From Nemertoderma westbladi (taxonomy: Eukaryota; Animalia; Xenacoelomorpha): 64,000 bases of DNA. Shown in pieces: positions 11,583-63,146 of the stretch (the first letter of the stretch is position 1; every line of letters starts with the position of its first letter). The DNA lies in the NCBI GenBank assembly GCA_032718475.1, contig JAUCBJ010001036.1:1952-65951 (forward strand). Reading direction: 5' to 3'. The position numbers and the translations under genes were made by a program. The notes beneath the pieces are model-generated. The model did no database searches and was not told where the DNA came from. It was given only the letters and a program-made list of their open reading frames with translations.

Positions 11583-12059
11583 GTGGAATTATATGGAAGG
11601 GTTTACTGTGGAAGCTTTCCCATGGTGGTGAATAGGCATTCCTTGGCTTAACGAGCCTAAACTATTCTCCTATTCATTATAGTAATAATTTCATACCACA
11701 CTTAAATAGTTCTCATAAGGAAATATTTTGTGAGTCAAAAGTGCAAGTAAGTGAAAACGTACAAAATTATATTATGGTCGCTTTCATTGAGATGGCTTAC
11801 AGTTTTGCTGCATGAAGACCCAACTAGTGTTTCTTATATTATAAAGTTGTAATAGAAAATAAAGATGATTCATAGAGCCAACGATGCACGAGATGATTCT
11901 GCTAATTTTTCAAGTTTCCCAAATTTTAAAGAAAACTACGAAATTTCGTTCATTCCTTTACGATTAGTTTTGACTGCTTAAAAGTTTAAACTCATTTGTA
12001 ACCAACAATATCTATTAATTTCGGATGCGGATTTGTGGAATATAGTTATTAGTTAATTA

Positions 12060-12243
12060 GACTACTACTAATACTACTATATTAACTACTAATACTACTA
12101 TATTAACTACTAATACTACTATATCAACTACTAATACTACTATATTAACTACTAATACTACTATATTAACTAATATTACTACTATATTAACTACTAATAC
12201 TACTATATTAACTACTAATACTACTATGTTAACTACTAATTAA
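12060..12243. repeat. 21-bp minisatellite, block 1 (ATTAACTACTAATACTACTAT)
   Basis: Direct tandem repeats visible in the sequence. Confidence 0.95.
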
Positions 12244-13308
12244 CTCTTTTACAGGCACTTTATTAATAGAACAAAATGAATAATTCCTACTCCGATACCG
12301 ATAATAAAAAAAATAATAAATAAAGAAAGAAGGGCCTGTTTAGAGGCCTATGTCTACCACTGACAGTCAGTCTAGCCGGTGTTGGTATCAGCGTTAGTCA
12401 GGCGAATCGAGTCTGCGGACACCTGATGATAAACAGGGCGTTTGGTGGCGGATCTCGCTCCACGGAGACACATCAAACTGGAGCGGAGAAGCGCGAAGCT
12501 TATCTTCCTCCGCGTCCAGCAGATACACTCAGAGTAGCTGAGGTCGCGACGATCCGAGAGTTTAAGCGATAAACGCTTAACGAACTGTTGCATCGCTGGC
12601 GCGGTACCACCAAAGGCTGAAAGTATCAGAGGCACAAACGACGACAGTTCGACCTCTCGGATGCGCTCCTCGTACTTCAGGCGTTTCCGCGCCTCGTGGT
12701 GGGAATAAGCGCCCTCGGTGGTCATGGCTGCGTTGGTGGCCGCTAGAGGGTTGTAGACCGAGACGTCGAAGTAAGTCTTCTCGAACCGGCCACCCCAGAA
12801 CCCGCTGACAGAGACGTCCAACCTCGCCTGATCTTCTGTGGAGGTGGATCTGTGGGTGAACTCCTCACCTGTTAGAGGCTGGAGTGTTGGCTCTACTGCG
12901 ACGTTGTGGGCTACTTCAGTTAGCGCGTCGGCAACGAAATCGCGTATCTCGTTGTGCCTTATCGAGGGATAACCCCCGGTGGGGCACGACAGGACGTGTG
13001 AAGGGGAAAATCGTTCCCCACAGACACAACGAGAAGGGAGCGACTTCGGTTGCCAGCCGTAGCGCAGACACAGAGCGTCGCGGAACTCTTCCTTAGACAG
13101 GTGAGTTTTGTGAAGGGTGACCGGTTTTGAGTTCAACCAAGCTGAAGCCCCCTTCTCCGACACCAGCTCCCTCAGATTCTGTTGGGACTCCGATAGCCGA
13201 CCATGACATTCTGTTGTTTTGGTCTTAGACGCCACGAAGGATTCAGCCTTTATTAGATTAGTGATATGGTTCTGATCCTCCCTGACGTCTGACATGGTCT
13301 GACATGGT
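12244..13308 (-). mobile_element. 5'-truncated CRE/SLACS-like non-LTR retrotransposon (zinc finger + restriction-like endonuclease)
   Basis: Uninterrupted 307-aa ORF with CxC...H...C (RCVCGERFSPSHVLSC), RHNEIRD, EP...ARLD...FDVSVYNP, HEARKRLKY and FVPLILSAFGG. AATAAA on the minus strand near 12259-12264. Confidence 0.85.
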
Positions 13309-14043
13309 GTTAACTACTAATACTACTATATTAACTACTAATACTACTACATTAACTACTAATACTACTATATTAACTACTAATACTACTACATTAACTA
13401 CTAATACTACTATATTAACTACTAATACTACTACATTAACTACTAATACTACTATATTAACTACTAATACTACCATATTAACTACTAATACTACTATGTT
13501 AACTACTAATACTACTATATTAACTACTAATACTACTACATTAACTACTAATACTACTATATTAACTACTAATACTACTACATTAACTACTAATACTACT
13601 ATATTAACTACTAATACTACTATATTAACTACTAATACTACTATATTAACTACTAATACTACTATATTAACTACTAATATATTAACTACTAATACTACTA
13701 TATTAACTACTAATACTACTATATTAACTACTAATACTACTATATTAACTACTAATACTATTATATTAACTACTAATACTACTATATTAACTACTAATAT
13801 TTTAACTACTAATACTACTATATTAACTACTAATACTACTATATTAACTACTAATACTACTATATTAACTACTAATACTACTATATTAACTACTAATACT
13901 ACTATATTAACTACTAATACTACTATATTAACTACTAATACAACTATATTAACTACTAATACTACCATATTAACTACTAATACTACTATATCAACTACTA
14001 ATACTACTATGTTAACTACTAATACTACTATATTAACTAATAA
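13309..14043. repeat. 21-bp minisatellite, block 2
   Basis: Same unit as block 1. It produces spurious LTTNTTI/VVLVVNI ORFs. Confidence 0.95.
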
Positions 14044-14065
14044 TTAAATGCTTGAGTTAATACAA

Positions 14066-14640
14066 TTATTTTATTCTTTAATTGTCAAGCTGAAGTAAAA
14101 AACCTTACCGGTAGGTATGCCAGTACAGTACGATACAAATACTAAAATAAAAAAGCAACTGACCATTAGACGTTGCATGCAATCAGTGATCAGCTGACGG
14201 CTGTCAGCTGATCAGTAGGTTTTGCCCCAATGGGGGCTTTCTCAAGTAGCTAGAGCACCCTTTGCGTCCTGTCCTGCAAAAACTAGAAATGTTTTATATA
14301 CGCACTCGCCAGCCAGCTATTAACAAGCAGAAACGTGATTGGCGCAAGTTTGAGGTGCTGCTTCCCAGTGGTTAGACGGATACACTTCTACCTGTTTCAC
14401 TTTACCGTCCCGTCTCCCTTGGGAACTTCTATCTATTGTCTCCTTTCTAGCACTAGCTACTTGAGAAAGCCCCCATTGGGGCGAAACCTACTGATCAGCT
14501 GACAGCCGTCAGCTGATCACTGATTGCATGCAACGTCTAATGGTCAGTTGCTTTTTTATTTTAGTATTTGTATCGTACTGTACTGGCATACCTACCGGTA
14601 AGGTTTTTTACTTCAGCTTGACAATTAAAGAATAAAATAA
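14066..14640. repeat. 188-bp near-perfect inverted repeat with a spacer of about 200 bp; possible Penelope-like terminal remnant
   Basis: Arms are 14066-14253 and 14453-14640, with one mismatch seen. The arm contains CTTGAGAAAG-CCCCCATTGGGG-CGAAAC, resembling the variant hammerhead cores of Penelope-like elements, and ends in AATAAA. The inverted repeat is certain; the Penelope call is inference. Confidence 0.7.
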
Positions 14641-17600
14641 ATATATTAACTACTAATACTACTACATTAACTACTAATACAACTATATTAACTACTAATA
14701 CTACCATATTAACTACTAATACTACTAATTAACTACTAATACTACCATATTAACTACTAATACTACTATATTAACTACTAATACTACTATATTAACTACT
14801 AATACTACTATATTAACTACTAATACTACTATATTAACTACTAATACTACTATATAACTACTAATACTACTATATTAACTACTAATACTACTATATAACT
14901 ACTAATACTACTATATTAACTACTAATACTACTATATTAACTACTAATACTACTATATTAACTACTAATACTACTATATTAACTACTAATACTACTATAT
15001 TAACTACTAATACTACTATATTAACTACTAATACTACTATATTAACTACTAATACTACTATATTAACTACTAATACTACTATATTAACTACTAATACTAC
15101 TATATTAACTACTAATACTACTATATTAACTACTAATACTACTATATTAACTACTAATACTACTATATTAACTACTAATACTACTATATTAACTACTAAT
15201 ACTACCATATTAACTACTAATACTACTATATTAACTACTAATACTACTATATTAACTACTAATACTACTATATTAACTACATAATACTACTATATTAACT
15301 ACTAATACTACTATATTAACTACTAATACTACTATATTAACTACTAATACTACTATATTAACTACTAATACTACTATATTAACTACTAATACTACTATAT
15401 TAACTACTAATACTACTATATTAACTACTAATACTACTATATTAACTACTAATACTACTATATTAACTACTAATACTACTATATTAACTACTAATACTAC
15501 TATATTAACTACTAATACTACTATATTAACTACTAATACTACTATATTAACTACTAATACTACTATATTAACTACTAATACTACTATATTAACTAATACT
15601 ACTATATTAACTACTAATACTACTATATTAACTACTAATACTACTATATTAACTACTAATACTACGATATTAACTAATAATACTACTAATACTACGATAT
15701 TAACTAATAATACTACTAATACTACGATATTAACTAATAATACTACTAATACTACGATATAACTAATAAACTACTAATACTACATATTAACTATAATACT
15801 ACTAATACTACTATATTAACTAATACTACTATATTAACTACTAATACTACTATATTAACTAATACTACTATATTAACTACATACTACTATATTAACTACT
15901 AATACTACTATATTAACTACTAATACTACTATTAACTATAATACTACTAATACTACGATATTAACTAATAATACTACTAATACTACTATATTAACTAATA
16001 ATACTACTATATTAACTACTAATACTACTATATTAACTACTAATACTACTATATTAACTACTAATACTACTATATTAACTACTAATACTACTAATACTAC
16101 TATACTATAATACTACTAATACTACTATATTAACTACTAATACTACTCATATTAACTACTAATACTACTAATACTACTATATTAACTACTAATACTACTA
16201 TAACTACTAATACTACTAATACTACTATACTATATACTACTAATACTACGATATTAACTACTAATACTACTAATACTACGATATTAACTAATAATACTAC
16301 TAATACTACGATATTAACTAATAATACTACTAATACTACGATATTAACTAATAATACTACTAATACTACGATATTAACTAATAATACTACTATATTAACT
16401 ATAATACTACTATACTACTATTAACTAATAACTACTAATACTACTATATTAACTACTAATACTACTATATTAACTACTAATACTACTATATTAACTACTA
16501 ATACTACTATATTAACTACTAATACTACTATATTAACTACTAATACTACTATATTAACTACTAATACTACTATACTAATATACTACTAATACTACTATAT
16601 TAACTACTAATACTACTATATTAACTACTAATACTACTATATTAACTAATACTACTATATTAACTACTAATACTACTATATTAACTACTAATACTACTAT
16701 ATTAACTACTAATACTACTATATTAACTACTAATACTACTATATTAACTACTAATACTACGATATTAACTACTAATACTACTAATAACTACTAATACTTA
16801 ACTAATAATACTACTAATACTACTATATTAACTACTAATACTACTAATTAACTACTATACTACTATATAACTACTAATACTACTATATTAACTACTAATA
16901 CTCTATTAACTACTAATACTACTATATTAACTACTAATACTACTAATACTACTATTAACTACTAATACTACTATATTAACTACTAATACTACTATATTAA
17001 CTACTAATACTACTATATTAACTACTAATACTACTATATTAACTACTAATACTACTATATTAACTACTAATACTACTATATTAACTACTAATACTACTAT
17101 ATTAACTACTAATACTACTATATTAACTACTAATACTACTATATTAACTACTAATACTACTATATTAACTACTAATACTACTATATTAACTACTAATACT
17201 ACTATATTAACTACTAATACTACTATATTAACTACTAATACTACTATATTAACTACTAATACTACTATATTAACTACTAATACTACTATATTAACTACTA
17301 ATACTACTATATTAACTACTAATACTACTATATTAACTACTAATACTACTATATTAACTACTAATACTACTATATTAACTACTAATACTACTATATTAAC
17401 TACTAATACTACTATATTAACTACTAATACTACTATATTAACTACTAATACTACTATATTAACTACTAATACTACTATATTAACTAATAATACTACTAAT
17501 ACTACGATATTAACTAATAATACTACTAATACTACTATATTAACTACTAATACTACTATATTAACTACTAATACTACTATATTAACTACTAATACTACTA

Positions 17601-20240
17601 TATTAACTACTAATACTACTATATTAACTACTAATACTACTATATTAACTACTAATACTACTATATTAACTACTAATACTACTATATTAACTAATACTAC
17701 TATATTAACTACTAATACTACTATATTAACTAATAATACTACTATATTAACTACTAATACTACTATATTAACTACTAATACTACTATATTAACTACTAAT
17801 ACTACTATATTAACTACTAATACTACTATATTAACTACTAATACTACTATATTAACTACTAATACTACTATATTAACTACTAATACTACTATATTAACTA
17901 CTAATACTACTATATTAACTACTAATACTACTATATTAACTACTAATACTACTATATTAACTACTAATACTACTATATTAACTACTAATACTACTATATT
18001 AACTAATAATACTACTAATACTACGTATACTAATAAACTACTATACTACTATATTAACTACTAATACTACTATATTAACTACTAATACTACTATATTAAC
18101 TACTAATACTACTATATTATACTACTAATACTACGTATATTAACTACTAATACTACTATATTAACTACTAATACTACTATATTAACTACTAATACTACTA
18201 TATTAACTACTAATACTACTATATTAACTACTAATACTACTATATTAACTACTAATACTACATATTAACTTATACTACTAATACTACTATTACTATAACT
18301 ACTAATACTACTATATTAACTACTAATACTACTATATTAACTACTAATACTACTATATTAACTACTAATACTACTATATTAACTACTAATACTACTATAT
18401 TAACTACTAATACTACTATATTAACTACTAATACTACTATATTAACTACTAATACTACTATATTAACTACTAATACTACTATATTAACTACTAATACTAC
18501 TATATTAACTACTAATACTACTATATTAACTACTAATACTACTATATTAACTACTAATACTACTATATTAACTACTAATACTACTATATTAACTACTAAT
18601 ACTACTATATTAACTACTAATACTACTATATTAACTACTAATACTACTATATTAACTACTAATACTACTATATTAACTACTAATACTACTATATTAACTA
18701 CTAATACTACTATATTAACTACTAATACTACTATATTAACTAATACTACTATATTAACTACTAATACTACTATATTAACTACTAATACTACTATATTAAC
18801 TACTAATACTACTATATTAACTACTAATACTACTATATTAACTACTAATACTACTATATTAACTACTAATACTACTATATTAACTACTAATACTACTATA
18901 TTAACTACTAATACTACTATATTAACTACTAATACTACTATATTAACTACTAATACTACTATATTAACTACTAATACTACTATATTAACTAATACTACTA
19001 TATTAACTACTAATACTACTATATTAACTACTAATACTACTAATACTACGATATTAACTATAATACTACTAATACTACTATATTAACTACTAATACTACT
19101 ATATTAACTACTAATACTACTATATTAACTACTAATACTACTAATACTACGATATTAACTAATCCATATTAACTACTAATACTACGATATTAACTAATAA
19201 TACTACTAATACTACGATATTAACTAATAATACTACTAATACTACGATATTAACTAATAATACTACTAATACTACTATATTAACTACTAATACTACTATA
19301 TTAACTACTAATACTACGATATTAACTATAATACTACTAATACTACATATTAACTATATACTACTAATACTACTATATTAACTACTAATACTACTATATT
19401 AACTACTAATACTACTATATTAACTACTAATACTACTATATTAACTACTAATACTACTATATTAACTACTAATACTACTATATTAACTACTAATACTACT
19501 ATATTAACTACTAATACTACTATATTAACTACTAATACTACTATATTAACTACTAATACTACTATATTAACTACTAATACTACTATATTAACTACTAATA
19601 CTACATATTAACTACTACTACTACTAATACTACTATATTAACTACTAATACTACTATATTAACTACTAATACTACTATATTAACTACTACTATATTAACT
19701 ATAATACTACTATATAACTACTAATACTACTATATTAACTACTAATACTACTATATTAACTACTAATACTACTATTAACTTAACTACTAATACTACGATA
19801 TTAACTATAATACTACTAATACTACTATATTAACTACTAATACTACTATATTAACTACTAATACTACTATATCGATATTAACTAATAATACTACTAATAC
19901 TACTATATTAACTACTAATACTACTATATTAACTACTAATACTACTATATTAACTACTAATACTACGATATTAACTAATAATACTACTAATACTACGATA
20001 CTACTATACTACTAATACTACTATATTAACTACTAATACTACTATATTAACTACTAATACTACTATATTAACTACTAATACTACTATATTAACTACTAAT
20101 ACTACTATATTAACTACTAATACTACGATATTAACTACTAATACTACTATATTAACTACTATACTACTAATACTACTATATATAACTACTAATACTACTA
20201 TATTAACTACTAATACTACTATATTAACTAATACTACTAA
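14641..20240. repeat. 21-bp minisatellite, main array (about 5.6 kb) with 30-bp variant sub-arrays
   Basis: Continuous tandem array. A variant unit ACTACGATATTAACTAATAATACTACTAAT recurs at about 15661, 16270 and 19181. Confidence 0.97.
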
Positions 20241-20363
20241 TAAATAATAAATAAATAACAATAAATAACAATAATAAATAACAATCCGCTGGCACATTAA
20301 ATTCATTATAATTGTTCATTATAATTGTTCATTATAATTGTTCAATACTTGTTTGTTACTCAG

Positions 20364-35978: not shown

Positions 35979-36361
35979 GCACGCCGACTAAGTCTTACCT
36001 TGGCCACAATAAGGCGGTGATCACTGGAGAAGGGTCGAAGTGTAAATGCATTACAGTCTTGTATAGAGCTCCTGTATTTCCTACGAAACAGAATATGGTC
36101 TATCTGGGACTTGTGACCACTGGGTCCACTATGAGTCCATAGCTTTCCAGTTCGCTTCTTGAACTGGGTTCCAGCCGAAAACAATCCATTTCCAGATATA
36201 AAATCCTGAAGATGGACAGAATTTCGGTTAACACTATTGCTATAGACACAGGGCGATGTAGGTGATTGATGCAGACTTGCATTAAAGTCTGCCAGGAATG
36301 TTAAGAATGCATGCTGATCCACTCCATCAGTAGCTGCTTGTAGATTGTGGTAGAACCCCAT
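35979..36361 (-). mobile_element. RTE AP-endonuclease fragment (upstream part of the 26052-28245 element)
   Basis: ADFNA, NRNSVHL, KLWTH, SQIDHIL and SSDHRLIVAKVRLS motifs. Confidence 0.85.
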
Positions 36362-38260
36362 TGTGCAATAAGCCCATTATTAGCAACATCAATATCATCA
36401 AGTGGCTGATTTAGCATTAAGGTTCTATAACGTTTGTCCAGAGGCAGAAAAGCAGCATCAGCGTTGTAAAGGTGTTGCTCAATAGCCTCATAGTAAGATG
36501 TTGTGAGTTTCAATTTGTCACCAACATTGGCCAACATTTGAGATATCTCTAAAGTGTTAGTAATCATGATACATCCAGTGGTGGTTATAGTGATCCTATG
36601 GGCTCTAAAATGAACAATAGCATACTGACAGAGAATTTCACCCAATTTGTCAAGATTCTTAATTTTCAACATAGCTTTTGTGTTTAGACATATGTTCTCA
36701 TCTGTCTTTGACTTGAATCTGCAATTGATGTGCTGAAAGATTAAGGATTCAAGTAATTGTGAATGCAACAGTATTATATGAAGTGCACTTCCAAGGGTAT
36801 TTAACCAGCGAACACCGACCTTTAGGACAGAGTTTTTGAGCTCTCGACCAGTCCAACTCAACTTGTTGGCTATCTTATAAATAAATCGCTGATCGTCATT
36901 AAAAACTGAAAGATCGGTGAATGTGCTATCATCCACAAGAGGCCAATTATCGGGACGTCTTATTACACAATCGTCCTCAATATATTTGTAGAGATTTGAG
37001 CCACCAATGCAGTCATATAAATGGCGCATATTAAAGCACAATGTAAGTATAGATCTAACAGTTCCACTTTAACGTTTGTCATCACTGGTTTAGTATCAAA
37101 GAACATTCTGATATAGTTTCTAACATGTGACCACAGATTGCTTCGTTACTATGCACTCTACACATAATGACAAACATCTGGTTGTTAAATAGCGCAACCT
37201 GCTGCAAAGGCGTAATAGCACCTCCTATTTTACCAATTCCAGAGTTTAGAGAAGTTGTATCGGTACAAATTCCAATTAGTTTTTGAGATTCTAGGTCTGG
37301 TTTAAAAGATCTTGCCAGGTAAGACCCTAGTGTTCTCCCAGTATGTGGAATGGGGAATTTCTCAATGTCATGAGGGACGTAAATAAATTTAGACTTGTTT
37401 AAATTTGATGCATGATATAGTGATACCTCATAGAGCTCTTTCCCATCACAATGAGCGAAAAAAAGTTGTAGTCATGCTTGAGTTGAATTAAGCGATCTGA
37501 AACACCATCAGCAAGTTTCTTGCTGGCTCGATATAATGTACTATCACTGGGAACAAATTTATCTTCGGTATCAGTGAGTTTGGCATATTTTGCGAAAACC
37601 TCCTGTCCTCCCTCCGCACTTATACCATAACGAATCATAACAGCAGAAACTGGTTGCCAGTTAATCTTTCTAGAAGATCGATTGGACGAGGTGGATGATG
37701 GGGTTTTTTCTGGTATATAATCTGAGTCTGCCTCTAAGCTGGGAGTAATGGGTGTTGTTATATTGGAAATAGAAGCTTCACCATCACCATCATCATCTAA
37801 CACCGTGAAACTTGTAGATGTAGAAGGTGACAAATTATTATATGATCTTTCGACTCTAGTTGATATGTGAGCATTGGCTGTAGCTCTTTTTGCACTGCGT
37901 TTCCATGCAGATATGTCAATAGAAGTCATGCCACCACCTTTTCCTGATTGATGATTAGTGTACCACATTAGATCTTCTTTCAGAACCCATTTAGGTTGTG
38001 AGGCTGCCTTGAATGATATTGGAGAATCACAACTTTCCAGAAAGTTACTTTTTTTTATGCCTAATATGATTTTGAAATTCTTTAGAGTAGTATGCGAGAT
38101 TCGTATCTTACTATTTGTATTAGTGATACACTGTATTCTATATTCTTTATACAATGTCTGAACTTCCTGAGAGAGACGATTTATTGAGTCATGTAGATTT
38201 GAATCTTCATGTATAAAAAATGCTAAACGTTTAAGAATTATTCGGTTCGAATGAGCCTAA
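36362..38260 (-). mobile_element. Degenerate DDE transposase, hAT-like (possibly hATm group)
   Basis: Between the two listed ORFs the minus strand reads LIGICTDTTSLNSG...GGAI...MCRVHSNE (DTT..N.G plus CxxH), followed by an RWL motif. TIRs were not identified. Confidence 0.6.
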
Positions 38261-52599: not shown

Positions 52600-52797
52600 T
52601 TCAGAAATGCTCAACAGTAGCAGGGCCACGACCATATCGGGATTGTGTTTTTCCATTCAAATATAATGGCACTGAATACACAAATACTTGTCCTGTTGAA
52701 CCCAATGATCACCCTTGGTGTGCCACAGAAGTTGACAATGATGGAAGTTTCGTTGTTGGCTCTGGAAATTGGGGAATATGTGCCTGGCAGTGTATTG
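52600..52797 (+). CDS. Host gene exon D: fibronectin type II domain
   Basis: Acceptor atattgcag and donor TTG|gtatgt; 198 nt, phase 1-1. Encodes KCSTVAGPRPYRDCVFPFKYNGTEYTNTC...PWCATEVD...GNWGICAWQC, with the FN2 CxFPFxYxG, WCAT and WGxC signatures. It is absent from the ORF track. Confidence 0.92.
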
Positions 52798-53067: not shown

Positions 53068-53690
53068 GGAAGCAGGACAATTCGGTCCCGGACAATTCGG
53101 TCCCGGACAATTCGGTCCCGGACAATTCGGTCCCGGACAATTCGGTCCTGGACAATTCGGTCCCGGACAATTCGATCTGGACAATTCGGTCCTGGTAAAT
53201 TCGGTCCCGGACAATTCGGTCCCGGACAATTCGGTCCCGGACAATTCGGTCCCGGACAATTCGGTCCCGGACAATTCGGTCCCGGACAGTTTGGTCCGGT
53301 CAATTCGGTCCCGGACATTACAGTCCCGGACAATTCGGTCCCGGACAATTCAGTCCTGGACAATTCGGTCCAGGACATGTCGGTCCGGGACAATTCGGTC
53401 TTGCTTGGACAATTCCGTCCCGACAATTCTGTCCTGGACAATTCGGTCCTGGACAATTTACTCCCGGACAATTCTGTCCCAGACAATTGGGTCCCGGACA
53501 ATTCGGTCCCGGACAATTCGGTCCTGGACAATTCGGTCCCGGACAATTCGGTCCTGGACAATTCGGTCCAGACAATTCGGTCCCGGGCAATTCGGTCTCG
53601 GACAATTCGGTCCCATTAATTTTGTGTTTTGGGACCGTATTGTCCGGGACCGAATTGTCCAGATACTGACTAGGACAATTCGGTCCCAAA
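53068..53690. repeat. 15-bp tandem array (GGACAATTCGGTCCC) with inverted copies at the right end; probable non-autonomous DNA transposon
   Basis: About 35 copies at 53075-53614 and inverted units GGGACCGAATTGTCC at about 53631-53660. Confidence 0.8.
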
Positions 53691-55088
53691 CAGGGGCAGT
53701 TTCATGGGGGGGATGTGGGGGTGGGACACCCCCCTAATTCCCAACTAAATGAAAAAGAGACGAAAATCCACGGGCAGCAGTGCGATATCTCATCGCGGTC
53801 AACGCTACAAAGTAAAATGCAAAACAGATACAGTAGGTGTGGAGCTATATTAACAATGGTTACAGGATAGAAAACAATAAAACATTTCACGATGGAAAGA
53901 CTGTCAGGTATGAAAGAATTTAGAGTCATTGTTACCGATAGCATGTGAAACGGATATTGTTGAAACTATCGAATTGAGTACAGTAATTAAGAACTGGATT
54001 AAAATAGGATTTAAAAAAACGTAAGATTCAATTCAAATAATTAAAACGATAATTTGTTGAATTGAATTTTTTTGTCAACTTTTATAAATTACTGTTAGTA
54101 GCCTACTACCTCGTTTTAAACATTAATATTTAGTTGTGATAATAGGGTTGCTGCGTGAAATTTTTCGAGCTGATATTATGATTGCATATTGTCAATTACT
54201 ATTATGATTATATTTAATTATTAATTAGGCCTACTATTATAATTATCACCGCATAAAAATATAAACATTTATTCGTGAATTGTTACTTTTTCGCTCGAAT
54301 GTACCCCAAAATAGGGAGAAAAAAGTTTCACTTTTTTACCTAAGGAAAATAGTAACCCGCAAGATTGCATTGATTTTACTTTTTTCCCTGCTTAAATTAA
54401 ACAATTTTTGGTGGAATTTCTTATAAATACAGTATGTGGTTTTTCTCCACATTTCACCACATTACATGTGGTAAAAGAGCATCAGCGTAGAAAAGGTTTG
54501 CACGTAATTGGAGCAAAATCCAGACACGGTCTCAAAAGTTATTGCAACTTTAGTGTCTGCACGGCGTACTCTAAAACGGAATTCAGTATCTAATATTAAT
54601 AAGGTAGTTCCGTGCCCAGGTCACCGGGGTAATCATAATATTGTTGGGGGGAGTTTGATCTTTTACAGGTGACACAAAACTGATTTCGGTTGCCACATAG
54701 GAGGAACTTTTCAAACAGATTACTTAGATGGTCCAATATTAACATGTTGAATAGCTTAGCTCAATTGAAATCAGGCTAATTCCACGATATTATGAACAAT
54801 ATCAGTATTAGAAGGATTAGGGACATAAATACCTATTACATTATACGTATTTATTCGGGTATGATAATTGTATGGTACATTATCTTGAATGAATAATTTG
54901 AATGATAATGAATTTGAATGAGTAACCTTGACTGCATCTTTAGAGACTTTAGAGATCTTTGAGACCGTTATAGTGAACTCTATCTTAACACTAGGGTTCT
55001 TCAAGGCAGACCAATCATGCTGACCTGAGGAATTCTTAATAGGTTTAACAATGTTTTGTCTCCCAAGAATATTTCAATTAGGTAGTTA

Positions 55089-55578
55089 GGCCCCCTTCAC
55101 ACGGAGCAACTTGTTTCTGAAACTTGTTGCTGGACACCCTCACACACAGAAACTTGTTGCTGCACCTTGTTTCCGAAACTTGTTATTGTGTGTGAGGAGT
55201 CCAGCAACAAGTTGCTGCATCTTGTTTCAGAAACTTATTTCTGTGTGTGAGGGGGTCCAGCAACAAGTTGCTGGAAGTTATATTCCCAGCAACTTTTTTA
55301 AAAACCTTTTTCACATCCAATTTTTATATTAGAGCTAATATTCGATAAATTGAGTGATTTAATAATATATATAAATGACTGGACATGTTAGCTATTTGTT
55401 TTGAAATAATTGTTATTTTCTTGAGCAACAAGTTTCTATGTGTGAGGGGGTCCAGCAACGAGTTGCTGAAACAAGTTTCGGAAACAAGTTGCAGCAACTT
55501 GTTTCTGTGTGTGAGGGGGTCCAGCAACAAGTTTCAGAAACAAGTTGCAGAAACAAGTTGCTCCGTGTGAGGGGGGCC
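55089..55578. mobile_element. PIF/Harbinger-type (Tourist-like) MITE
   Basis: TIRs GGCCCCCTTCACACGGAGCAACTTG / CAAGTTGCTCCGTGTGAGGGGGGCC, 3-bp TTA duplication, and internal inverted subrepeats. Confidence 0.85.
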
Positions 55579-55859
55579 TTAGTTAGTTTATCTTTATTCA
55601 TATAAAATTCAAATGTATAAAATACAAATGAGGCAGTTAATATTGAGATATTTACTGATAGCTAAATGAGCCAATGCCAATGCCAAAAATGCCAATGCTA
55701 CTAAGTAGCACCTGTAACACAATGAATACCATACAAATATATATACATATAAATTATAAAATATCTCTACTCGTAATAAATTTACTCCAACCAAAACATA
55801 ACAAATAGTATTGGAACTAGGTGTTACTACCATCCTACTTCTTATTTAGTTCACGTTTA

Positions 55860-58212
55860 AAATTTGTTAGAAAATAGCACCATCATCTGGCAAACCGCAG
55901 GATTGCATTATCATATTTGACGAGGTTCACATAAAGGCCAGTATACAGTAACGCGGCGGACATTTGATAGGACATGCAGTAGATGGACCATTCGAAACAA
56001 TCTAACAATCAAAACCAGCTAGAAAGGTTCTGAGTATCATGGTTAAGCCCTTATTGAGATTGAGTAGATGTGCATTCATGGTGAAGTTGATCCCAGTCTA
56101 CTCATTGCAGAATGACTTTCTCATAGAACAGCTTTCGAAGGTAATTAACCTTGTAAATTCTTGCAATGGAAATGTGATTAGCCTATTAGCTGACAACTTA
56201 TCTACAAACCGAACTGCCTTTAAATAGTACAACGCAAACTATGGTAATCCGAACTTTCCTTACCTTGGTTCAGTGTCTCCAGATGTTGGTCAATCTAAAT
56301 TCTTCCACATGCTCTATGACCCGACTCATCTCCTTAAGTCAATTCGCAATAACTGGGTCACTGAAAATATCCAAAGATTGACAATAAGGGTTCCTGGCAC
56401 ATCGCGTTATATTCGCGGTGACTGGAAGGACATTAAAGAGCTATACAAGGTTGATTCCATGAATATAGTGCGAATGACTACTCTAACCCAGGCAGCCATA
56501 AACCCATCTTCTTTTGAGAAGCAGAAGGTTTCTCTAACACTCCAGGTTTTCAATGAGAAAACTGTGGCCGCTTTAGCCTTGAGAGGAAACAAAGAGACAG
56601 CCGAGTTTGTTGATATAGTGCTGCGTTTCTGGAAGATTGTCAATGTCAAGTCCACTAGCATAGGATATAGGTTGAATGATCCTCACCGTTATCCAATAAA
56701 GCCGCCGACTGATTCCCGTTTGACATATCTGAGAGATTTGGCTGGTAATATTAAAGATATGAAAGGGGGGAAGGGAGTGAAACGTGTAGAGAGTTTGACC
56801 ACAGAAACTCGAACCTCAATGATATCTACACTCGAAGGATTATGTGACATTACAGAGAAACTGCTTAGATTCAATGGATATAATTATGTCTTGCTTGGCT
56901 TACTACATTCTGATCCGATCGAAGGAGAGTTTGGAGTATACAGGCAAATGAGTGGCGAAAATTATAACATCTCTCTGGAACAGGTCATGTATTCAGAGAG
57001 ATTACGACGAATGAAGATTTACCACAGCTTTGACATCGAACCTATTAGTCACGAAAAGAACCACTGCTGCACGAGCGAATTAACTAATAATGAACTGGAA
57101 GATATTGACTACGTCCTTGAAAATGAAGAATACAGCATTAGTGACACAGAGAAAAGCGCTTTGATGTACAGTATACATGCGGCTATGTGACCTTCAAGGA
57201 ACAACTGCCCATTGATGTCTCAGAACTTAAAGATTGTTCACAACTTCCAAAGTGTGACTTCACGGACATGGTATCTAGAGGAAAGCTTTCAATTCCACGT
57301 GTAGACATATTGCATCTAGCCTGTGCTTCTCTGTCACTTACCAAACGGCGCTATATTGGATGTACAACCAGGATGAGGCGATTTGTCGATATCATATATG
57401 ACAATACCGTGGTCGATAGTGCTATTGATGGTAGGAAGGCAGGTAATATCCACAGACTCTGCAATATACGGATGAAGGGATTCTCCAAGTTCTACAGCAA
57501 TAAAGCGGCTAATGACAGAGATGTAGAGACTAATAATAGGAAGAAGATAAAACTGAATAGCCAATAGGGCTGCAATAACATAAATTAGACAGAGACTCTG
57601 TTGAATAATAGCTTACTGTAAGCTAAATGACGTGTTATCGAAAATGAACACTTATTTTGAATAAAAATTAAGTAAAGTTTTTCACCCGTTAGGCCGCGAT
57701 TACATTACGCACAAAGTTCTTTGACTTATTCTCAGTAAATAAACAGTAAATTTCCAGTAAACAATAATAAGTCTAACAGGTCTAACTGTACTCTGGGATA
57801 AACGTATCCCAGAGTCTGCTCTGGGATGCCTCCGTACAGATTATATATATTTCGAAATATTGTGGCTCGTATATTTTATTAGGAGTTCGGTTTCCGTAGT
57901 AGATACAGTCAGTTATTTCACACAACTTATTTCAAAGGTTATTTCGAATATCTTTCAACAGTTAGTTATTTTATACTAATAAATTATCGCCAGCAAATTG
58001 TCGTAAAATATTTACATTAAGTACAATACTACATTAGGTTGTTAGCAATACAAATTAAAAACATTAAAAACGTTCGCATTAAAAACAATGAAAGGAAATT
58101 GAGAAGTTTACTTCTGTAAATTAAATTAATTAGGCATACACTGAATAGAAAAAACCGGCCTCTAATAAAATTAACACTGTATGCGAGCATCGCGTCCTGA
58201 ATATATACTATG
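55860..58212 (+). mobile_element. P-superfamily (THAP9-like) transposase pseudogene with a probable right terminus
   Basis: IFDEVHIK, YDPTHLLKSIRNN, FEKQKV and SDPIEGEFGVYRQMSG motifs, with several stops and frameshifts. The end ...ATATATACTATG (CATAG-type) is at 58212. The N-terminus and left TIR were not found. Confidence 0.8.
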
Positions 58213-58268
58213 TTCTAGAAGTCCTTGGTGTGTGTTTATCTGGTTTTTGGTGTAGTTAGTTTGATTAA

Positions 58269-58324
58269 CATGTGTCCTGCACGGGTTAGTGTAGCTGATG
58301 AGCCAAATCCCGGCGAAACACATG
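58269..58324 (+). ncRNA. Type III hammerhead ribozyme
   Basis: Stem III CATGTGT/ACACATG (7 bp), cleavage triplet GUC (after 58276), stem I CTGCAC/GTGTAG with loop GGGTTA, core CTGATGA, stem II GCC/GGC with loop AAATCCC, core GAAA. Confidence 0.85.
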
Positions 58325-58612
58325 CAAAAATGTAACCAATGTGATAATTTTACTTACAGTATTTAAACAGGGTTGCGCTTTGTGTTTAAATAAAATGATG
58401 ACTACTTACGGTTGAACAGAGAGGAACATGTTGTTTCTCTGTTTCCAATTAATTTTACTTGCTTGATATTGTTGGTCTGTCAAAAACATAATTCGTTCAA
58501 CTCAAAATTATATTTAAGAGACCGGATCATGCTGAACATGGTTGTATAAAATACCTTCCTATTATTTTATTTTTATTATATATATAACTATATACAGTAT
58601 TTAGGGCTGTAT

Positions 58613-59913
58613 CAGGGCCTTCATAAAATAACAGGCCTGGACACAGAGCTGCCCTCAAAAAAATAAGAGGCCAAGTAGGAAGTTTTCAAGAATAAAATCA
58701 TAAAGGATTTACACAAATTGCCAATGGAGTTATGTTCTAGAACAAAAATAATTTAATATTTTATTAAATACTTGTTGTGTGTTGTGAAATTTTGAAATTA
58801 TGGTTAGACACTGCAGTGTCAATAACTGTGAAAGTGGGAGTCAGCGGAGTGCATTGAGAACTGTTTTTGCTCCACCAAAAAACGTCGAAAAGAGAAAGTT
58901 GTGGCAAGAGGCACTACGCGAAAATTGTGTAGTGACATTAACTGATAGTATGGGAGTTTGTGAGAACCATTTCATTCCAAGTCATGTGATTGGAACAGGG
59001 CAAAGAAAGCGCCTTCATAGAGATGCAACACCGTTTTCGTGCCGGGGTAATGTGGGAGCAAGCTCAAATTAATTTGCATCAACTGAAGAGAAGAGAAGAC
59101 TTGTAAATGAGGGTGAAAGACTAGATGCGGAGATCAGAGAGTTTTTGTCAAGTGACATAATAGTGTCCACATCTCAATTCGATGAGGGCGAACTATCTGA
59201 ACCAAACAAGCTATTCTATAACTTAATCCAGATAGCTGACGACAAAAAACTCAAAAAGTTGAAAAGTGTTGGATGATGGAACTATTTACGTCAACATTTT
59301 ACAAACATGATCGAAATACTAATTCTTTTTGTATAATTTATCTATGAAACGCAATCTTTAATTTCAGTTCAGAAAATAAAGTAAATGTTTAATTAATCAT
59401 TCACGTAATATCAATAAATTATTATCAGATATTAATGGTATCATCAATAAAAAGTTAGCTTACTTTATAACGAAATGGCTTTATATATAGATAGATATAG
59501 ATATATAGATAGATATAGATATAGATGTATAGGCTACTGTATATAGCTTACAGATAACGAAAAAGAGCCCTTACTTACCCGTTGCTAGGGCGAAAGTCAT
59601 ACCCGATATACTGTAGTGGGGTGGGTGTTGGTCACATAGCCCCAAACTTGTTAGTTCATACACGATATAGTACTGATTTCTGTTGATCCAATGGCCACAA
59701 AGTTGTTTGTTTACCCATTGCTAAGGAGAAAGTCACTGTTGCTATGGTAACTGTGACTTAAAAATGTGTCCATTAAATTCCCCATACACGATATAGTACT
59801 GATATGTGTTGGTCCCATGATCATAGAGTGAAATGAAGTAACACTTCCTACTTGGCCTCTTATTTTTTTGAGGGCAGCTCTGTGTCCAGGCCTGTTATTT
59901 TATGAAGGCCCTG
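58613..59913 (+). mobile_element. Non-autonomous P-superfamily element retaining a THAP domain
   Basis: TIRs of about 70 bp (CAGGGCCTTCATAAAATAACAGG...), with no mismatch seen, 7-bp TSD GCTGTAT, and an internal THAP ORF. Confidence 0.9.
58800..59072 (+). CDS. THAP (C2CH) zinc-finger DNA-binding domain ORF, transposon-derived
   Basis: M..C-SVNN-C...F..P.....RKLW...VCENHF...RKRL..DATP matches the THAP consensus. It has an ATG start and is 90 aa long. Confidence 0.8.
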   Translation: MVRHCSVNNCESGSQRSALRTVFAPPKNVEKRKLWQEALRENCVVTLTDSMGVCENHFIPSHVIGTGQRKRLHRDATPFSCRGNVGASSN

Positions 59914-60108: not shown

Positions 60109-61032
60109 CATGGCCTACTATATTTATACGGCCTAACAGTTCACTTGAACTGGCCTCTTAAAAAGAGGCCAGTTTTTTTTAACAATATTTTGAGATTTTG
60201 ATATGGGAAGAGTTCTATAAATTTTCATTTGCAGCAATTTGGTCAATGGACGTAATTGAAGTCTCCTCGTTAATTAAGCAAGATACTAAATTGTATGGTA
60301 GCTAGTGTTTTACATAGGTTTAGCTAGTAATTTCAACACTGGTTCCGACATCCTACTTCATTCTATAAATATTTTTTATTAGCTAGTTTTTATTACTATT
60401 TGTATAGAAAATGTTCCAGAACATGTTAGCTCTTCATTTTAAAAAAAATATGTTCTAGAACAAATATTTTTTGTTCTAGAACATTTTTTTTTTTTTAATC
60501 TGGATTATGTTTAAAACGCATGGAATCGTTCTAAAACGTGTTGAAAATTGTGAAAAAAAATATTGTTGAAAAATCTTTTCGAAAAAAAAAATTTTGAAAA
60601 TTGTTTTTTATTAATTTTAAACACGTTTTAGAACTATTCCATGCGTTTTAAATAGAATCCAGATGTTTTTCAAAAAAATGTTCTAGAACAAATATTTTTT
60701 GTTAAACTTTTAAATTAATTTTAAATTTTTTTTTTAAAAATGAATAGCTAACATGTTCTGGAACATTTTTTTAAGTAGGATGTCGGAACCAGTGCAGTGT
60801 GGAAATTACTAGCTAAACCTACCTAAAACATTAGCTACCATAAAATTTAGAATTTAAAATTTAAAATTTAATGAGGAGACTTCAATTACGACCGTTGACC
60901 AAATTGCTGCAAATGAAAATTTATAGAACTCTTCCCATATCAAAATCTCAAAATATTGTTAAAAAAAACTGACCTCTTTTTAAGAGGCCAGTTCAAGTGA
61001 CCTGTTAGACCGTATAAATATAGTAGGCCATG
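60109..61032. mobile_element. Foldback element, P-superfamily/Galileo-like
   Basis: Almost the whole 924 bp is an imperfect palindrome, with termini CATGGCCTAC...GTAGGCCATG and a 7-bp TSD CCCAGAC. Confidence 0.88.
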
Positions 61033-61149
61033 CCCAGACGCAGGTCTGTGATCCGGTCGTTGTTGGTTTGCTTTTGCTTTGATTGTAATAGCTATGGGAA
61101 TTGTTCAATTAATGAAGTTGACATCTTTCATGGACATGATCTTAAGTTG

Positions 61150-62150
61150 TGCATTAGTTGTACGCTTTTAAGGTCCCCAAGCTGTATTAGTGCCTTAAGA
61201 TTCCTTACCATGCCTCTTTACTGAAGTTGGTGAGGGATCTCCACAAATCGAAGAATGTACACAACGTTATGGAATGCACAATGGAATGGCGTTATACTGG
61301 TTTGGGTACCTGATGTTCCTTGCCCAATCCACGTTTCGTCCTACCGCGAATTGGGCAACCTGAAATCTTCCTTAGCTTAACATTCTCTATACCATTCTTT
61401 AACATACTCTTAATTTGATGGTTTTTAGCGTTTTGACTCGTTGATACTGATAAGATTAACTCGCTTTGTTTGCAGTAATAGTTATAAGCAGGCAGTTGTT
61501 GAGGTGTTCTTCAGCGGTATGCAGCACTGCTAAGCGTAATTTTCGTGGTGATGTCTCGGAGGTGCACAACGCACATCTCTGGAGTCTCTTCGGGGAGACA
61601 TTTTCAGTTGGAGATCTATCTTGGCAGTGGACATGGATGTTGTTCCGCCATCGCCGCATCGATGTGCTCGCCGACTCGTATAGGATTATGGTGATATCTT
61701 AGTTCTCCTCAGGTGTCAAGGCCTTTGGTGATGGCATTTGTTGACTGTGTAAAGGCCACCATTAGGGCGGCCCCTGATTGGCACTGTGTAACGTGAAGGA
61801 GAACGGTTGAGAGTTCAGCGTCTGGTGGGTCAGCGGGGTCCGCCACATAAAGGGCACACAGCCCAGAGGGGATATGGAACGCCTCCCACTTATCGCACTT
61901 CAATCCCAAGTGAGGCATTCGGATTCTATGTCGAACGTAGGCAGACTGCCTTGTAGGATAAAGCTGTGGGGATCTCGCCTGGCATTAGTGCAGGAGTAGG
62001 TAGGGGATGTGGAATGTATTTGGAAGGCGTCAGTTTGGTCGTACCTATCACTGCTCGATGACAAATGGTGACCATTGAAGGGTCTGCATATATTCCAATA
62101 CAGCAATATCCACATACAGGCAGACAGCACTGGAAGCCAGGCTATATAAT
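61150..62150 (-). mobile_element. Possible degenerate Penelope-like retroelement (RT C-terminus + GIY-YIG)
   Basis: Minus-strand traces GSLPTFDI (compare LPFLD) and GRTKRGLGKEHQ (compare GxTxRxLxxRxxEH). It is heavily decayed. Confidence 0.4.
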
Positions 62151-62396: not shown

Positions 62397-63146
62397 TTCT
62401 ATGGCAAACAGTAACTGGATTACTTAAATGGGTGAGTGCTGGCCAAGCTGGAGTTTGGGGTGTAAACGCAAATGATGCAATTTTCTACCGAGAAGGGACA
62501 TACGGATCATGCAGTATTGGTACGAGATGGATTGGTATCTCTGGGGGACTCAACAATATTGCTGTTGGAAATGATATTGTTTGGGGAGTAAATGTACACA
62601 CTCAAATTTACTGGCGAGCTGTCAGTCAGCAAAATCCGACTGGCAATACCTGGATTGGAATTGGCGGAGGACTCACCAGGATAACAGTCGACTCATCCAG
62701 CAACGGAGTCTGGGGTACAATCAGTAACAATGTCTACCAGAGATTAGGTATATCGGCCTCAACACCTGGCGGTACATCATGGTTTCAAATCATTGGTGCA
62801 AGCATGGCAGACATCAGCTTCGGAGCATCAGGCCTTTGGGGGATTCATTCACAAGGTCTACATTACATGCAAGGCACCTTTGGTTCCAATAACATTGTTG
62901 GAAGCTTTACAGGATGGACAGCTGAAGATTGGCTAACGATTAGTTCAGGAGCAGATGGTGTTTTATGGGCTACAAAGATAAACCATGAAATATACACAGC
63001 CACGGTGAAAGAAGGGAATATAAATCCAGTTTGGGAACGTATAGAAGGTGGACTGAAGCAAGTGAGCGTCAGTGATTGGAATGGTGTGGTTTGGGGAGTG
63101 GACTATAATGATAGAGTGTGGACTAAAGAAGGGGTTTGCGCACCAG
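62397..63146 (+). CDS. Host gene exon E: six tectonin/tachylectin-1-like repeats (beta-propeller lectin)
   Basis: Acceptor tatttcag and donor CAG|gtgagc; 750 nt, phase 1-1. Six repeats of W..I.G.L..I.VG...VWGV, in frame with exon D. Confidence 0.92.

What the first reader, a model, noticed from the sequence alone, without database searches (positions are those of the whole stretch)
58269..58324. Complete type III hammerhead ribozyme, sense-oriented in a host intron
Seen: the core nucleotides (CUGAUGA, GAAA, GUC) and three fully paired stems fit in 56 nt. Loop I (GGGUUA) and loop II (AAAUCCC) could form a GGG/CCC loop-loop contact. Known: loop I-II tertiary contacts enable fast cleavage; animal hammerheads are mostly type I and linked to Penelope-like elements or retrozymes. 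Inference: it may cut the host pre-mRNA between the FN2 and propeller exons, or it may mark a small mobile RNA family. An AATAAA lies about 65 nt downstream.
Basis: partly seen in the sequence, partly recalled or inferred. Interest (0 to 1): 0.75.

Follow-up and report, generated by a model that had tools for sequence, protein, structure and literature searches.

The report
Self-locking plant-type hammerhead in animal repeat
A complete hammerhead self-cutting RNA motif, of the type usual in plants and viroids, sits in one broken copy of an abundant repeat of what is likely an invertebrate animal, and the 41 bases before it are predicted to fold over and lock it, so it is likely a leftover of a small jumping element copied from circular RNA and likely does not cut the host gene's transcript.

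Summary
The type III hammerhead at 58269-58324 is real: full core, stems of 6, 3 and 7 bp, the only hit in the window, and 0 equal hits in 150 shuffles. Rfam misses it. It is not a unique host element. Public contigs show 58228 to about 58580 as a young repeat with roughly a hundred or more near-identical copies, wedged between two DNA transposons. New here: 58228-58325 is predicted to fold into a 38-bp rod (z -6.7, 10 G-U pairs, this strand only) that buries the ribozyme and puts the cut site at its tip. The hammerhead fold lies 24.5 kcal/mol above the rod, so this single copy likely leaves the host pre-mRNA uncut. Best reading: a remnant of a retrozyme-like element built like plant retrozymes and viroids (type III plus blocking arm), not like known animal ones (type I, mostly unblocked). 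Tandem copies, RNA, circles and cleavage are not shown here. This scan noted a similar design elsewhere in the same genome (e1-10613132, e1-10610887); I could not confirm it is the same family.

The parts
58269..58324 (+). Type III hammerhead motif; predicted cut between C58276 and C58277
   Evidence: Sequence and descriptor search with shuffles; cut site by the established NUH rule; cleavage not tested
58228..58268 (+). Antisense (locking) arm, G/U-rich, complementary to the 3' two thirds of the hammerhead
   Evidence: Folding; 0 of 2000 shuffled arms fold as well; unpaired on the minus strand
58228..58325 (+). Predicted rod of 38 bp (helices of 10, 4, 6, 7, 6 and 5 bp; 10 G-U pairs) with the cut site in its 3-nt tip loop 58276-58278
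   Evidence: -42.7 kcal/mol, z -6.74, 0 of 200 shuffles; pair list
58283..58310 (+). Possible loop I-loop II kissing helix, 58283-58287 with 58306-58310 (5 bp)
   Evidence: Register scan; chance 4-6%; 0 of 26 phage type III controls reach 5; no covariation data
58228..58580 (+). Truncated copy of the high-copy repeat; one hammerhead only; left part missing; right end approximate (58560-58595)
   Evidence: Contig depth and loose ends; no second copy in the window
58367..58394 (+). Downstream segment with AATAAA at 58389; contigs of the family often carry 6 more bases here, which would complete a small hairpin that this copy lacks
   Evidence: tables 4 and 7; hairpin read by eye, not folded
55900..58227 (+). 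P-element-like (THAP9/TNP-like) transposon remnant; its right end abuts the locking arm; left terminal repeat not found; left boundary approximate
   Evidence: Pfam TNP-like_GBD on ORF 56228-57190; contigs at depth 200-1000 run to 58178 and varied flanks follow 58229; search for the left end negative
58613..59913 (+). THAP-domain element with 74-bp terminal inverted repeats and a 7-bp target duplication
52600..52797 (+). Host exon, fibronectin type II domain, phase 1-1
   Evidence: Pfam fn2, E 2e-9; splice sites
62397..63146 (+). Host exon, tectonin/Hyd_WA beta-propeller, phase 1-1
   Evidence: Pfam Tectonin, E 1e-33; best named homologues are mollusc, amphioxus, echinoderm and priapulid lectin-like proteins at 33-41%

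Best explanation
The motif is a complete type III hammerhead inside a truncated copy of an abundant repeat, which is likely a non-autonomous retrozyme-type element of an invertebrate whose ribozyme is predicted to be locked by its own upstream antisense arm. Shown: the motif, the repeat, the neighbours. Predicted: a lone copy transcribed from outside, as in this probable intron, folds into a 38-bp rod and does not cut. Inferred: in a tandem transcript the 3' half of the previous unit's hammerhead takes the arm and frees the next ribozyme; two cuts release a monomer whose two ends pair as the same rod, which holds them side by side at the tip for ligation; the circle stays locked and is later reverse-transcribed and inserted by a borrowed enzyme, most likely of a Penelope-like element. 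This copy has one hammerhead and lacks its left part, so by itself it would make no circle.
For: Motif beyond chance. Abundance: single contigs over the hammerhead have depth 2775 (X3, 58263-58312, 0 differences) and 3217 (X1, 58232-58291, 3 differences), against 9-29 and 15-38 for the other listed contigs of those runs. Only two common variants are listed in 58207-58356: a substitution at 58262, which is unpaired in the rod and outside the hammerhead, and a 2-nt insertion after 58321, which leaves 6 pairs in stem III. A diverged copy type seen in 3 of 3 covered runs aligns over 58229-58334 (11 differences) and stops aligning about 10 nt after the rod. Rod: z -6.74 on this strand, arm unpaired on the other, 10 of 38 pairs G-U, 0 of 2000 shuffled arms as good. 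The gap to the hammerhead fold is 25.6 kcal/mol, against median 4.9 and maximum 14.9 in 26 phage type III motifs with their own 41-nt leaders. A free 3' cut product can take the arm at nearly equal energy (difference 0.7 kcal/mol), and the nicked rod keeps all its pairs. Plant retrozymes and viroids are described with this blocked arm (PMC4918200; PMC7229834). An inverted joint at exactly 58277 in two samples and a few copies starting at 58277-58286 are weak hints of a cut RNA template and of Penelope-type insertion.
Against: The isolated motif prefers a misfold by 4.7 kcal/mol; only 2 of 26 controls have so large a gap and 1 of 26 has a 3-bp stem II. In the unlocked two-strand state that misfold would still win in the energy model. 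Rfam has no hit. Depth does not step up sharply at the cut site in X3, and copy starts also fall at 58233, 58243, 58259 and 58306 (only 24 of 170 pieces and 18 of 62 loose ends were shown). Summed contig depth is no true copy number. G/U-rich sequence pairs easily: the best shuffled arm reached -41.5 against -42.7.
Confidence: 0.6

Rival explanations
1. The repeat is the terminal repeat (pLTR) or 3' tail of an autonomous Penelope-like retrotransposon that carries a type III hammerhead in place of the usual minimal type I; this copy is a 5'-truncated stub.
For: Depth rises from the left end as in 5'-truncated insertions, there is an inverted joint, and the right end fades into AT-rich simple sequence; these are described features of Penelope-like insertions (PMC8557442). 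Animal retrozymes are argued to derive from pLTRs (bioRxiv 10.64898/2026.07.22.740005), so this overlaps the best explanation.
Against: No Penelope reading frame was recognised among the window's ORFs (by eye; not searched with a profile). The upstream loose ends differ between runs by indels, which does not look like coding sequence. Hammerheads described in animal pLTRs are minimal type I (PMC4209133, part 1).
Confidence: 0.2
2. The repeat is a solo or broken LTR of a plant-style LTR retrozyme mobilised by a gypsy or BEL element.
For: Type III motif, blocking arm and a length of about 350 bp match plant retrozyme LTRs of about 330 bp, which also occur as solo LTRs (PMC4918200). The window holds ORFs that look like a BEL/Pao element (recognised from recall).
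Against: Ragged ends in both directions and an inverted joint fit an LTR poorly. No clean end or short target duplication is visible on the right. No primer-binding site or purine tract was identified.
Confidence: 0.1
3. The ribozyme cuts the host pre-mRNA between the FN2 and propeller exons and so affects host expression.
For: Sense orientation between two phase-compatible exons. Domesticated intronic hammerheads exist in amniotes (PMC6155905). Energy models omit Mg2+ and the loop-loop helix.
Against: The arm is made first and the rod wins by 24.5 kcal/mol; in a growing-chain calculation stem I is displaced by position 58298. The copy is one member of a young repeat among other transposons, with no sign of conservation at this locus.
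Confidence: 0.07
4. The motif is inherited from an ancestral ribozyme but no longer cuts in any context, and the repeat spreads without it.
For: Short stem II, a competing local fold and no Rfam match. Identity among copies may reflect recent amplification rather than selection.
Against: Every core position is intact in the commonest contigs; the diverged copies keep this module best; the competing fold uses the same bases that would make the loop-loop helix, which the folding program cannot draw.
Confidence: 0.1

Closest known systems
Plant LTR retrozymes (Cervera, Urbina, de la Pena 2016, PMC4918200; passages)
   Same: Type III hammerhead with a 6-bp stem I; non-coding multi-copy element; hammerhead paired to a complementary arm that blocks it.
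   Different: Here the host is likely an animal; no LTR ends, primer-binding site, purine tract or 4-bp target duplication shown; GC is low (43% in the rod); loops are 6 and 7 nt and complementary, not the usual 6-8 nt plus 4 nt non-canonical contact.
Metazoan non-LTR retrozymes (Cervera and de la Pena 2020, PMC7229834, passages; bioRxiv 10.64898/2026.07.22.740005, part 1 of 5 and passages)
   Same: Animal host, low GC, a few hundred bases, many dispersed single copies, often intronic (about 43% in Xenopus).
   Different: They carry type I hammerheads and, apart from some mussel ones, are predicted not to block the ribozyme by self-pairing. Tandem arrangement and circles are shown for them and not here.
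Genomic type III hammerheads of termites and dipterans, and of HDV-like RNAs of toad and termite (PMC7936874, passages)
   Same: Type III topology in an animal genome, with Watson-Crick pairing between loops 1 and 2.
   Different: Those have long helices I and II with an internal loop and were found as isolated motifs; this one is compact (56 nt), sits in a high-copy repeat and has a locking arm.
Pseudoknotted hammerheads (Perreault et al. 2011, PMC3088659, passages)
   Same: About 40% of hammerheads use base pairing between stems I and II; in type III this goes with a 2-bp difference in stem length, which fits here if A58305 and C58311 stack as a fourth pair of stem II (inference).
   Different: That paper says the vast majority of repeat-associated eukaryotic hammerheads are type I.
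Hammerheads in the pLTRs of Penelope-like elements (PMC4209133, part 1 of 4; PMC8557442, passages)
   Same: Hammerhead in a 5'-truncated, sometimes inverted repeat end.
   Different: Those are minimal type I motifs with almost no helix III; this has a 7-bp helix III and closed loops I and II.

Membership tests
Hammerhead ribozyme, type III | Core CUGANGA, GAAA and NUH around a three-way junction | tested here: met
Hammerhead ribozyme, type III | Stems I and II closed by loops, stem III open | tested here: met
   6, 3 and 7 bp; the one type I register found has a 1-bp stem III
Hammerhead ribozyme, type III | Match to a curated covariance model | tested here: not met
   No Rfam hit at gathering score or at E up to 10; this is a detection test, not a defining feature of the class
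Hammerhead ribozyme, type III | Loop I-loop II tertiary contact | tested here: inconclusive
   5 possible pairs, chance 4-6%; no covariation data
Hammerhead ribozyme, type III | Site-specific self-cleavage | not testable with these tools
   Needs a bench assay
Metazoan non-LTR retrozyme | Type I hammerhead | tested here: not met
   Type III, so it is not filed as a plain member
Metazoan non-LTR retrozyme | Multi-copy non-coding element of a few hundred bases, low GC | tested here: met
   no long open frame over 58228-58600 on the plus strand
Metazoan non-LTR retrozyme | Head-to-tail tandem units | tested here: inconclusive
   No going-back joint, but part of the unit is missing from the window; tandem pairs appear only in unchecked earlier notes
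Metazoan non-LTR retrozyme | Linear and circular monomer RNA in vivo | not testable with these tools
   Only assembled contigs were served
Plant LTR retrozyme | Type III hammerhead blocked by a complementary arm | tested here: met
   Predicted only
Plant LTR retrozyme | Two LTRs, primer-binding site, purine tract, 4-bp target duplication | tested here: inconclusive
   Left end is replaced by a transposon end and the right end is ragged
Penelope-like element pLTR | Linkage to an RT plus GIY-YIG reading frame | not testable with these tools
   No genome held; upstream family sequence known for 30 letters only
Penelope-like element pLTR | Minimal type I hammerhead | tested here: not met
   against PMC4209133
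Domesticated intronic hammerhead (RECK type) | Single copy conserved at the orthologous intron | tested here: not met
   High-copy repeat among transposons; orthologous loci of other species were not available

The most novel reading that the evidence does not exclude
An animal retrozyme with viroid-like design and a relay lock: one antisense arm silences the ribozyme in lone copies (so intronic insertions are harmless), is handed to the previous unit in tandem transcripts (so multimers cut), and then clamps the two cut ends together at the tip of a rod for circularisation. It would be a genomic source for the type III, rod-shaped circular RNAs found in animals.
Probability: 0.3. Interest if true: 0.75.

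Novelty: new variant of a known kind. Interest (0 to 1): 0.5.

Why it matters
Published work sorts retrozymes into plant (type III, blocked) and animal (type I, mostly unblocked) kinds, and the animal survey read here searched with type I models only. A high-copy animal family with the plant and viroid design breaks that split and bears on where viroid-like and HDV-like circles with type III hammerheads come from. It also gives a simple three-construct test of how a self-cutting element can sit in a host intron without cutting the host's RNA. This copy itself is a broken remnant, and the scan has already noted the same design in this genome.

Tried and rejected
No whole genome is held, so copy number, tandem arrangement and covariation could not be taken from an assembly. 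Rfam: no hit. No RNA holder listed; the one run guessed to be RNA (X4) has a contig over 58282-58580, which trace DNA of a high-copy repeat would also give, so it was not used. Run X5 laid 0 records. Pattern scans for relatives: exact core in viral contigs 0; both loops in metagenomes 0; relaxed loops in viral contigs 27 matches, 0 complete type III motifs; loop II plus core in metagenomes 13 matches, 0 hammerheads. Earlier findings by sequence: 0 twice. Protein Atlas gave no answer. One review was not held. Paper searches (0 papers; none relevant) added nothing. Rejected: that the hammerhead is part of the P-like transposon, because other copies of the repeat have different sequence before 58228 and other transposon ends have different sequence after 58229; a hammerhead on the minus strand (0 hits); a tRNA head (no Rfam tRNA hit; ARAGORN not run). 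A sharp depth step at the cut site was looked for and not found consistently. A few upstream letters read like the end of a Penelope endonuclease (recalled motif), but indels between runs argue against it. The short segments between 55885-56228 and 61033-61502 were not annotated (one search returned an error).

Full report
Observation. The 56 bases at 58269-58324 hold a full type III hammerhead: stem III of 7 pairs, GUC at 58274-58276, stem I of 6 pairs with loop GGGUUA, core CUGAUGA, stem II of 3 pairs with loop AAAUCCC, and GAAA. It is the only hit on either strand of the window. In 150 shuffles there were 4 hits at loose stringency, 1 at medium and 0 at the observed stem lengths. Rfam gives no hit. 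ViennaRNA prefers another fold for the bare motif, by 4.7 kcal/mol, in which the loop bases pair as an ordinary helix. The two loops can form 5 pairs (58283-58287 with 58306-58310); random loops do so in 4-6% of trials, and 0 of the 26 controls do.

Host context. An FN2 exon (52600-52797) and a tectonin propeller exon (62397-63146) lie on the same strand with phase 1 ends. Named homologues of the propeller are mostly from molluscs, amphioxus, echinoderms and a priapulid at 33-41% identity, so the host is likely an invertebrate. None of the 54 listed homologues has an FN2 domain, so one gene is inferred from phase only. The 9.6 kb between the exons is filled with transposon pieces: a P-like transposase remnant, a THAP element with 74-bp inverted repeats and a 7-bp target duplication, and two more inverted-repeat elements.

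The motif belongs to a repeat. No genome is held, so I laid assembled contigs of public runs on the region. Over 57500-58700, three DNA runs from two samples gave 506, 343 and 237 records and a fourth gave 2. Summed depth is mostly 400-1400 over the transposase remnant and 17,000-76,000 over 58197-58565 in run X1. Summed depth is no copy number, but single contigs tell the same: one covering 58263-58312 with 0 differences has depth 2775 where other listed contigs of that run have 9-29, and one covering 58232-58291 has 3217 against 15-38. That points to about a hundred or more near-identical copies. Other copies carry different sequence before 58228, and other transposon ends carry varied sequence after 58229, so the P-like end abuts the repeat there and the repeat's left part is missing; the transposon's own left end was not found. 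Only two common variants are listed in 58207-58356: a substitution at 58262 and a 2-nt insertion after 58321. A diverged copy type in 3 of 3 covered runs aligns over 58229-58334 and stops shortly after the hammerhead (only that right boundary is informative). There is no second copy in the window and no tandem joint.

The lock. With upstream sequence included the hammerhead stems vanish. Bases 58228-58325 fold into a rod of 38 pairs at -42.7 kcal/mol, z -6.74, 0 of 200 shuffles. Ten pairs are G-U, and on the opposite strand the arm is unpaired, which points to an RNA of this strand and not a DNA palindrome. None of 2000 shuffled arms folds as well (mean -26.8, best -41.5). Of 818 GC-matched 103-nt windows, 2 fold as well, both inside repeats. 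The hammerhead fold lies 24.5 kcal/mol above the rod; the gap falls to about 5 once the transcript starts at 58243 or later. In the 26 controls the same measure has median 4.9 and maximum 14.9, against 25.6 here. The cut site sits in the 3-nt tip loop. The common substitution falls on an unpaired base of the rod (22 of 98 positions are unpaired, so this is weak).

Mechanism. Shown: motif, repeat, neighbours. Predicted: read-through from the host promoter makes the arm first, the rod zips up, and the pre-mRNA is not cut. Inferred: a free 3' cut product can pair with the arm of a second copy and leave that copy's hammerhead strands free at nearly equal energy (0.7 kcal/mol difference), and a rod nicked at the cut site keeps all its pairs. 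So tandem transcripts would cut, the monomer's ends would be held together for ligation, and the circle would be locked. The caveat is that the local misfold still wins in the energy model, which lacks Mg2+ and the loop-loop helix. Reverse transcription by a Penelope-type enzyme is inferred from ragged 5' ends and one inverted joint at exactly 58277 seen in two samples. Copy starts in the rows shown fall at 58233, 58243, 58259, 58277, 58281-58283, 58285-58286 and 58306; only 24 of 170 pieces and 18 of 62 loose ends were shown, and depth does not step sharply at the cut in run X3, so this is a weak hint.

Comparison with what is known. Passages read state that animal genomes mostly have type I and plants type III hammerheads (PMC7229834; PMC7761336; PMC6155905; PMC13725137). 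Plant retrozymes block the ribozyme with a complementary arm (PMC4918200), whereas most animal retrozyme circles are predicted to leave it free, some mussel ones excepted (PMC7229834). Type III motifs are reported in termite and fly genomes, as isolated motifs with long helices (PMC7936874), and a discontinuous one in mammalian Clec2. Loop-loop pseudoknots are common (PMC3088659). The 2026 preprint on animal retrozymes used type I models only (part 1 of 5; passages). PMC4209133 (part 1 of 4), PMC8557442 (passages) and PMC5680766 (two passages) cover Penelope-like elements. In five searches I found no description of a high-copy animal repeat with a compact type III hammerhead and a locking arm. 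I opened no supplements; the alignments of PMC3088659, the preprint's tables and the follow-up on fly motifs announced in PMC7936874 may bear on this.

Earlier notes of this scan. I had the rod result before one search showed e1-10613132, a note on a 460-base tandem pair with a type III hammerhead and an antisense arm elsewhere in this genome; e1-10610887 describes two such motifs. The lengths are compatible with my copy lacking about 100 bases, but two look-ups by sequence found nothing, so identity of the families is unconfirmed. These notes moved me from the Penelope-tail reading towards a tandem retrozyme; they are leads, not support.

Verdict. Observation confirmed; interpretation partly supported. 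It works like a plant retrozyme or viroid arm, in an animal repeat, and is a member of neither published retrozyme class on the tests made here. New variant of a known kind; interest 0.5.

Noticed in passing
window 58613-59913: Compact THAP-domain element with 99% identical 74-bp terminal inverted repeats and a 7-bp target duplication; looks like a recent non-autonomous P/Galileo-type insertion (family name recalled).
   Followed up: partly
window 55088-55579 and 60109-61032: Two non-coding inverted-repeat elements, the second with long nested arms (165 bp at 96%).
   Followed up: no
window 52600-52797 and 62397-63146: FN2 exon and tectonin propeller exon in compatible phase; this domain pair was in 0 of 54 listed homologues, so it may be a lineage-specific lectin-like protein.
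   Followed up: partly
window 11900-20250: Long 21-bp tandem arrays in several blocks and both orientations, with a 202-bp inverted pair at 14055-14651 and a restriction-endonuclease-type non-LTR fragment at 12372-13313 (type recalled, no Pfam hit).
   Followed up: no
window 53075-53690: Tandem array of an 18-bp unit that keeps several frames open; likely a minisatellite.
   Followed up: no
window 58509-58560: Segment shared with a variant family that has different upstream sequence; begins with a TATA-like motif and may be a conserved box of the repeat.
   Followed up: no
window 36301-38256: Several long minus-strand frames of unknown family (no Pfam hit for two of them), possibly a decayed DNA transposase.
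   Followed up: partly
L073:501-2018 and L064:501-996: Viral contigs with four type I and two type III hammerheads in close series; 124 of about 135 matches of the generic core pattern folded as type I or III in my script.
   Followed up: no
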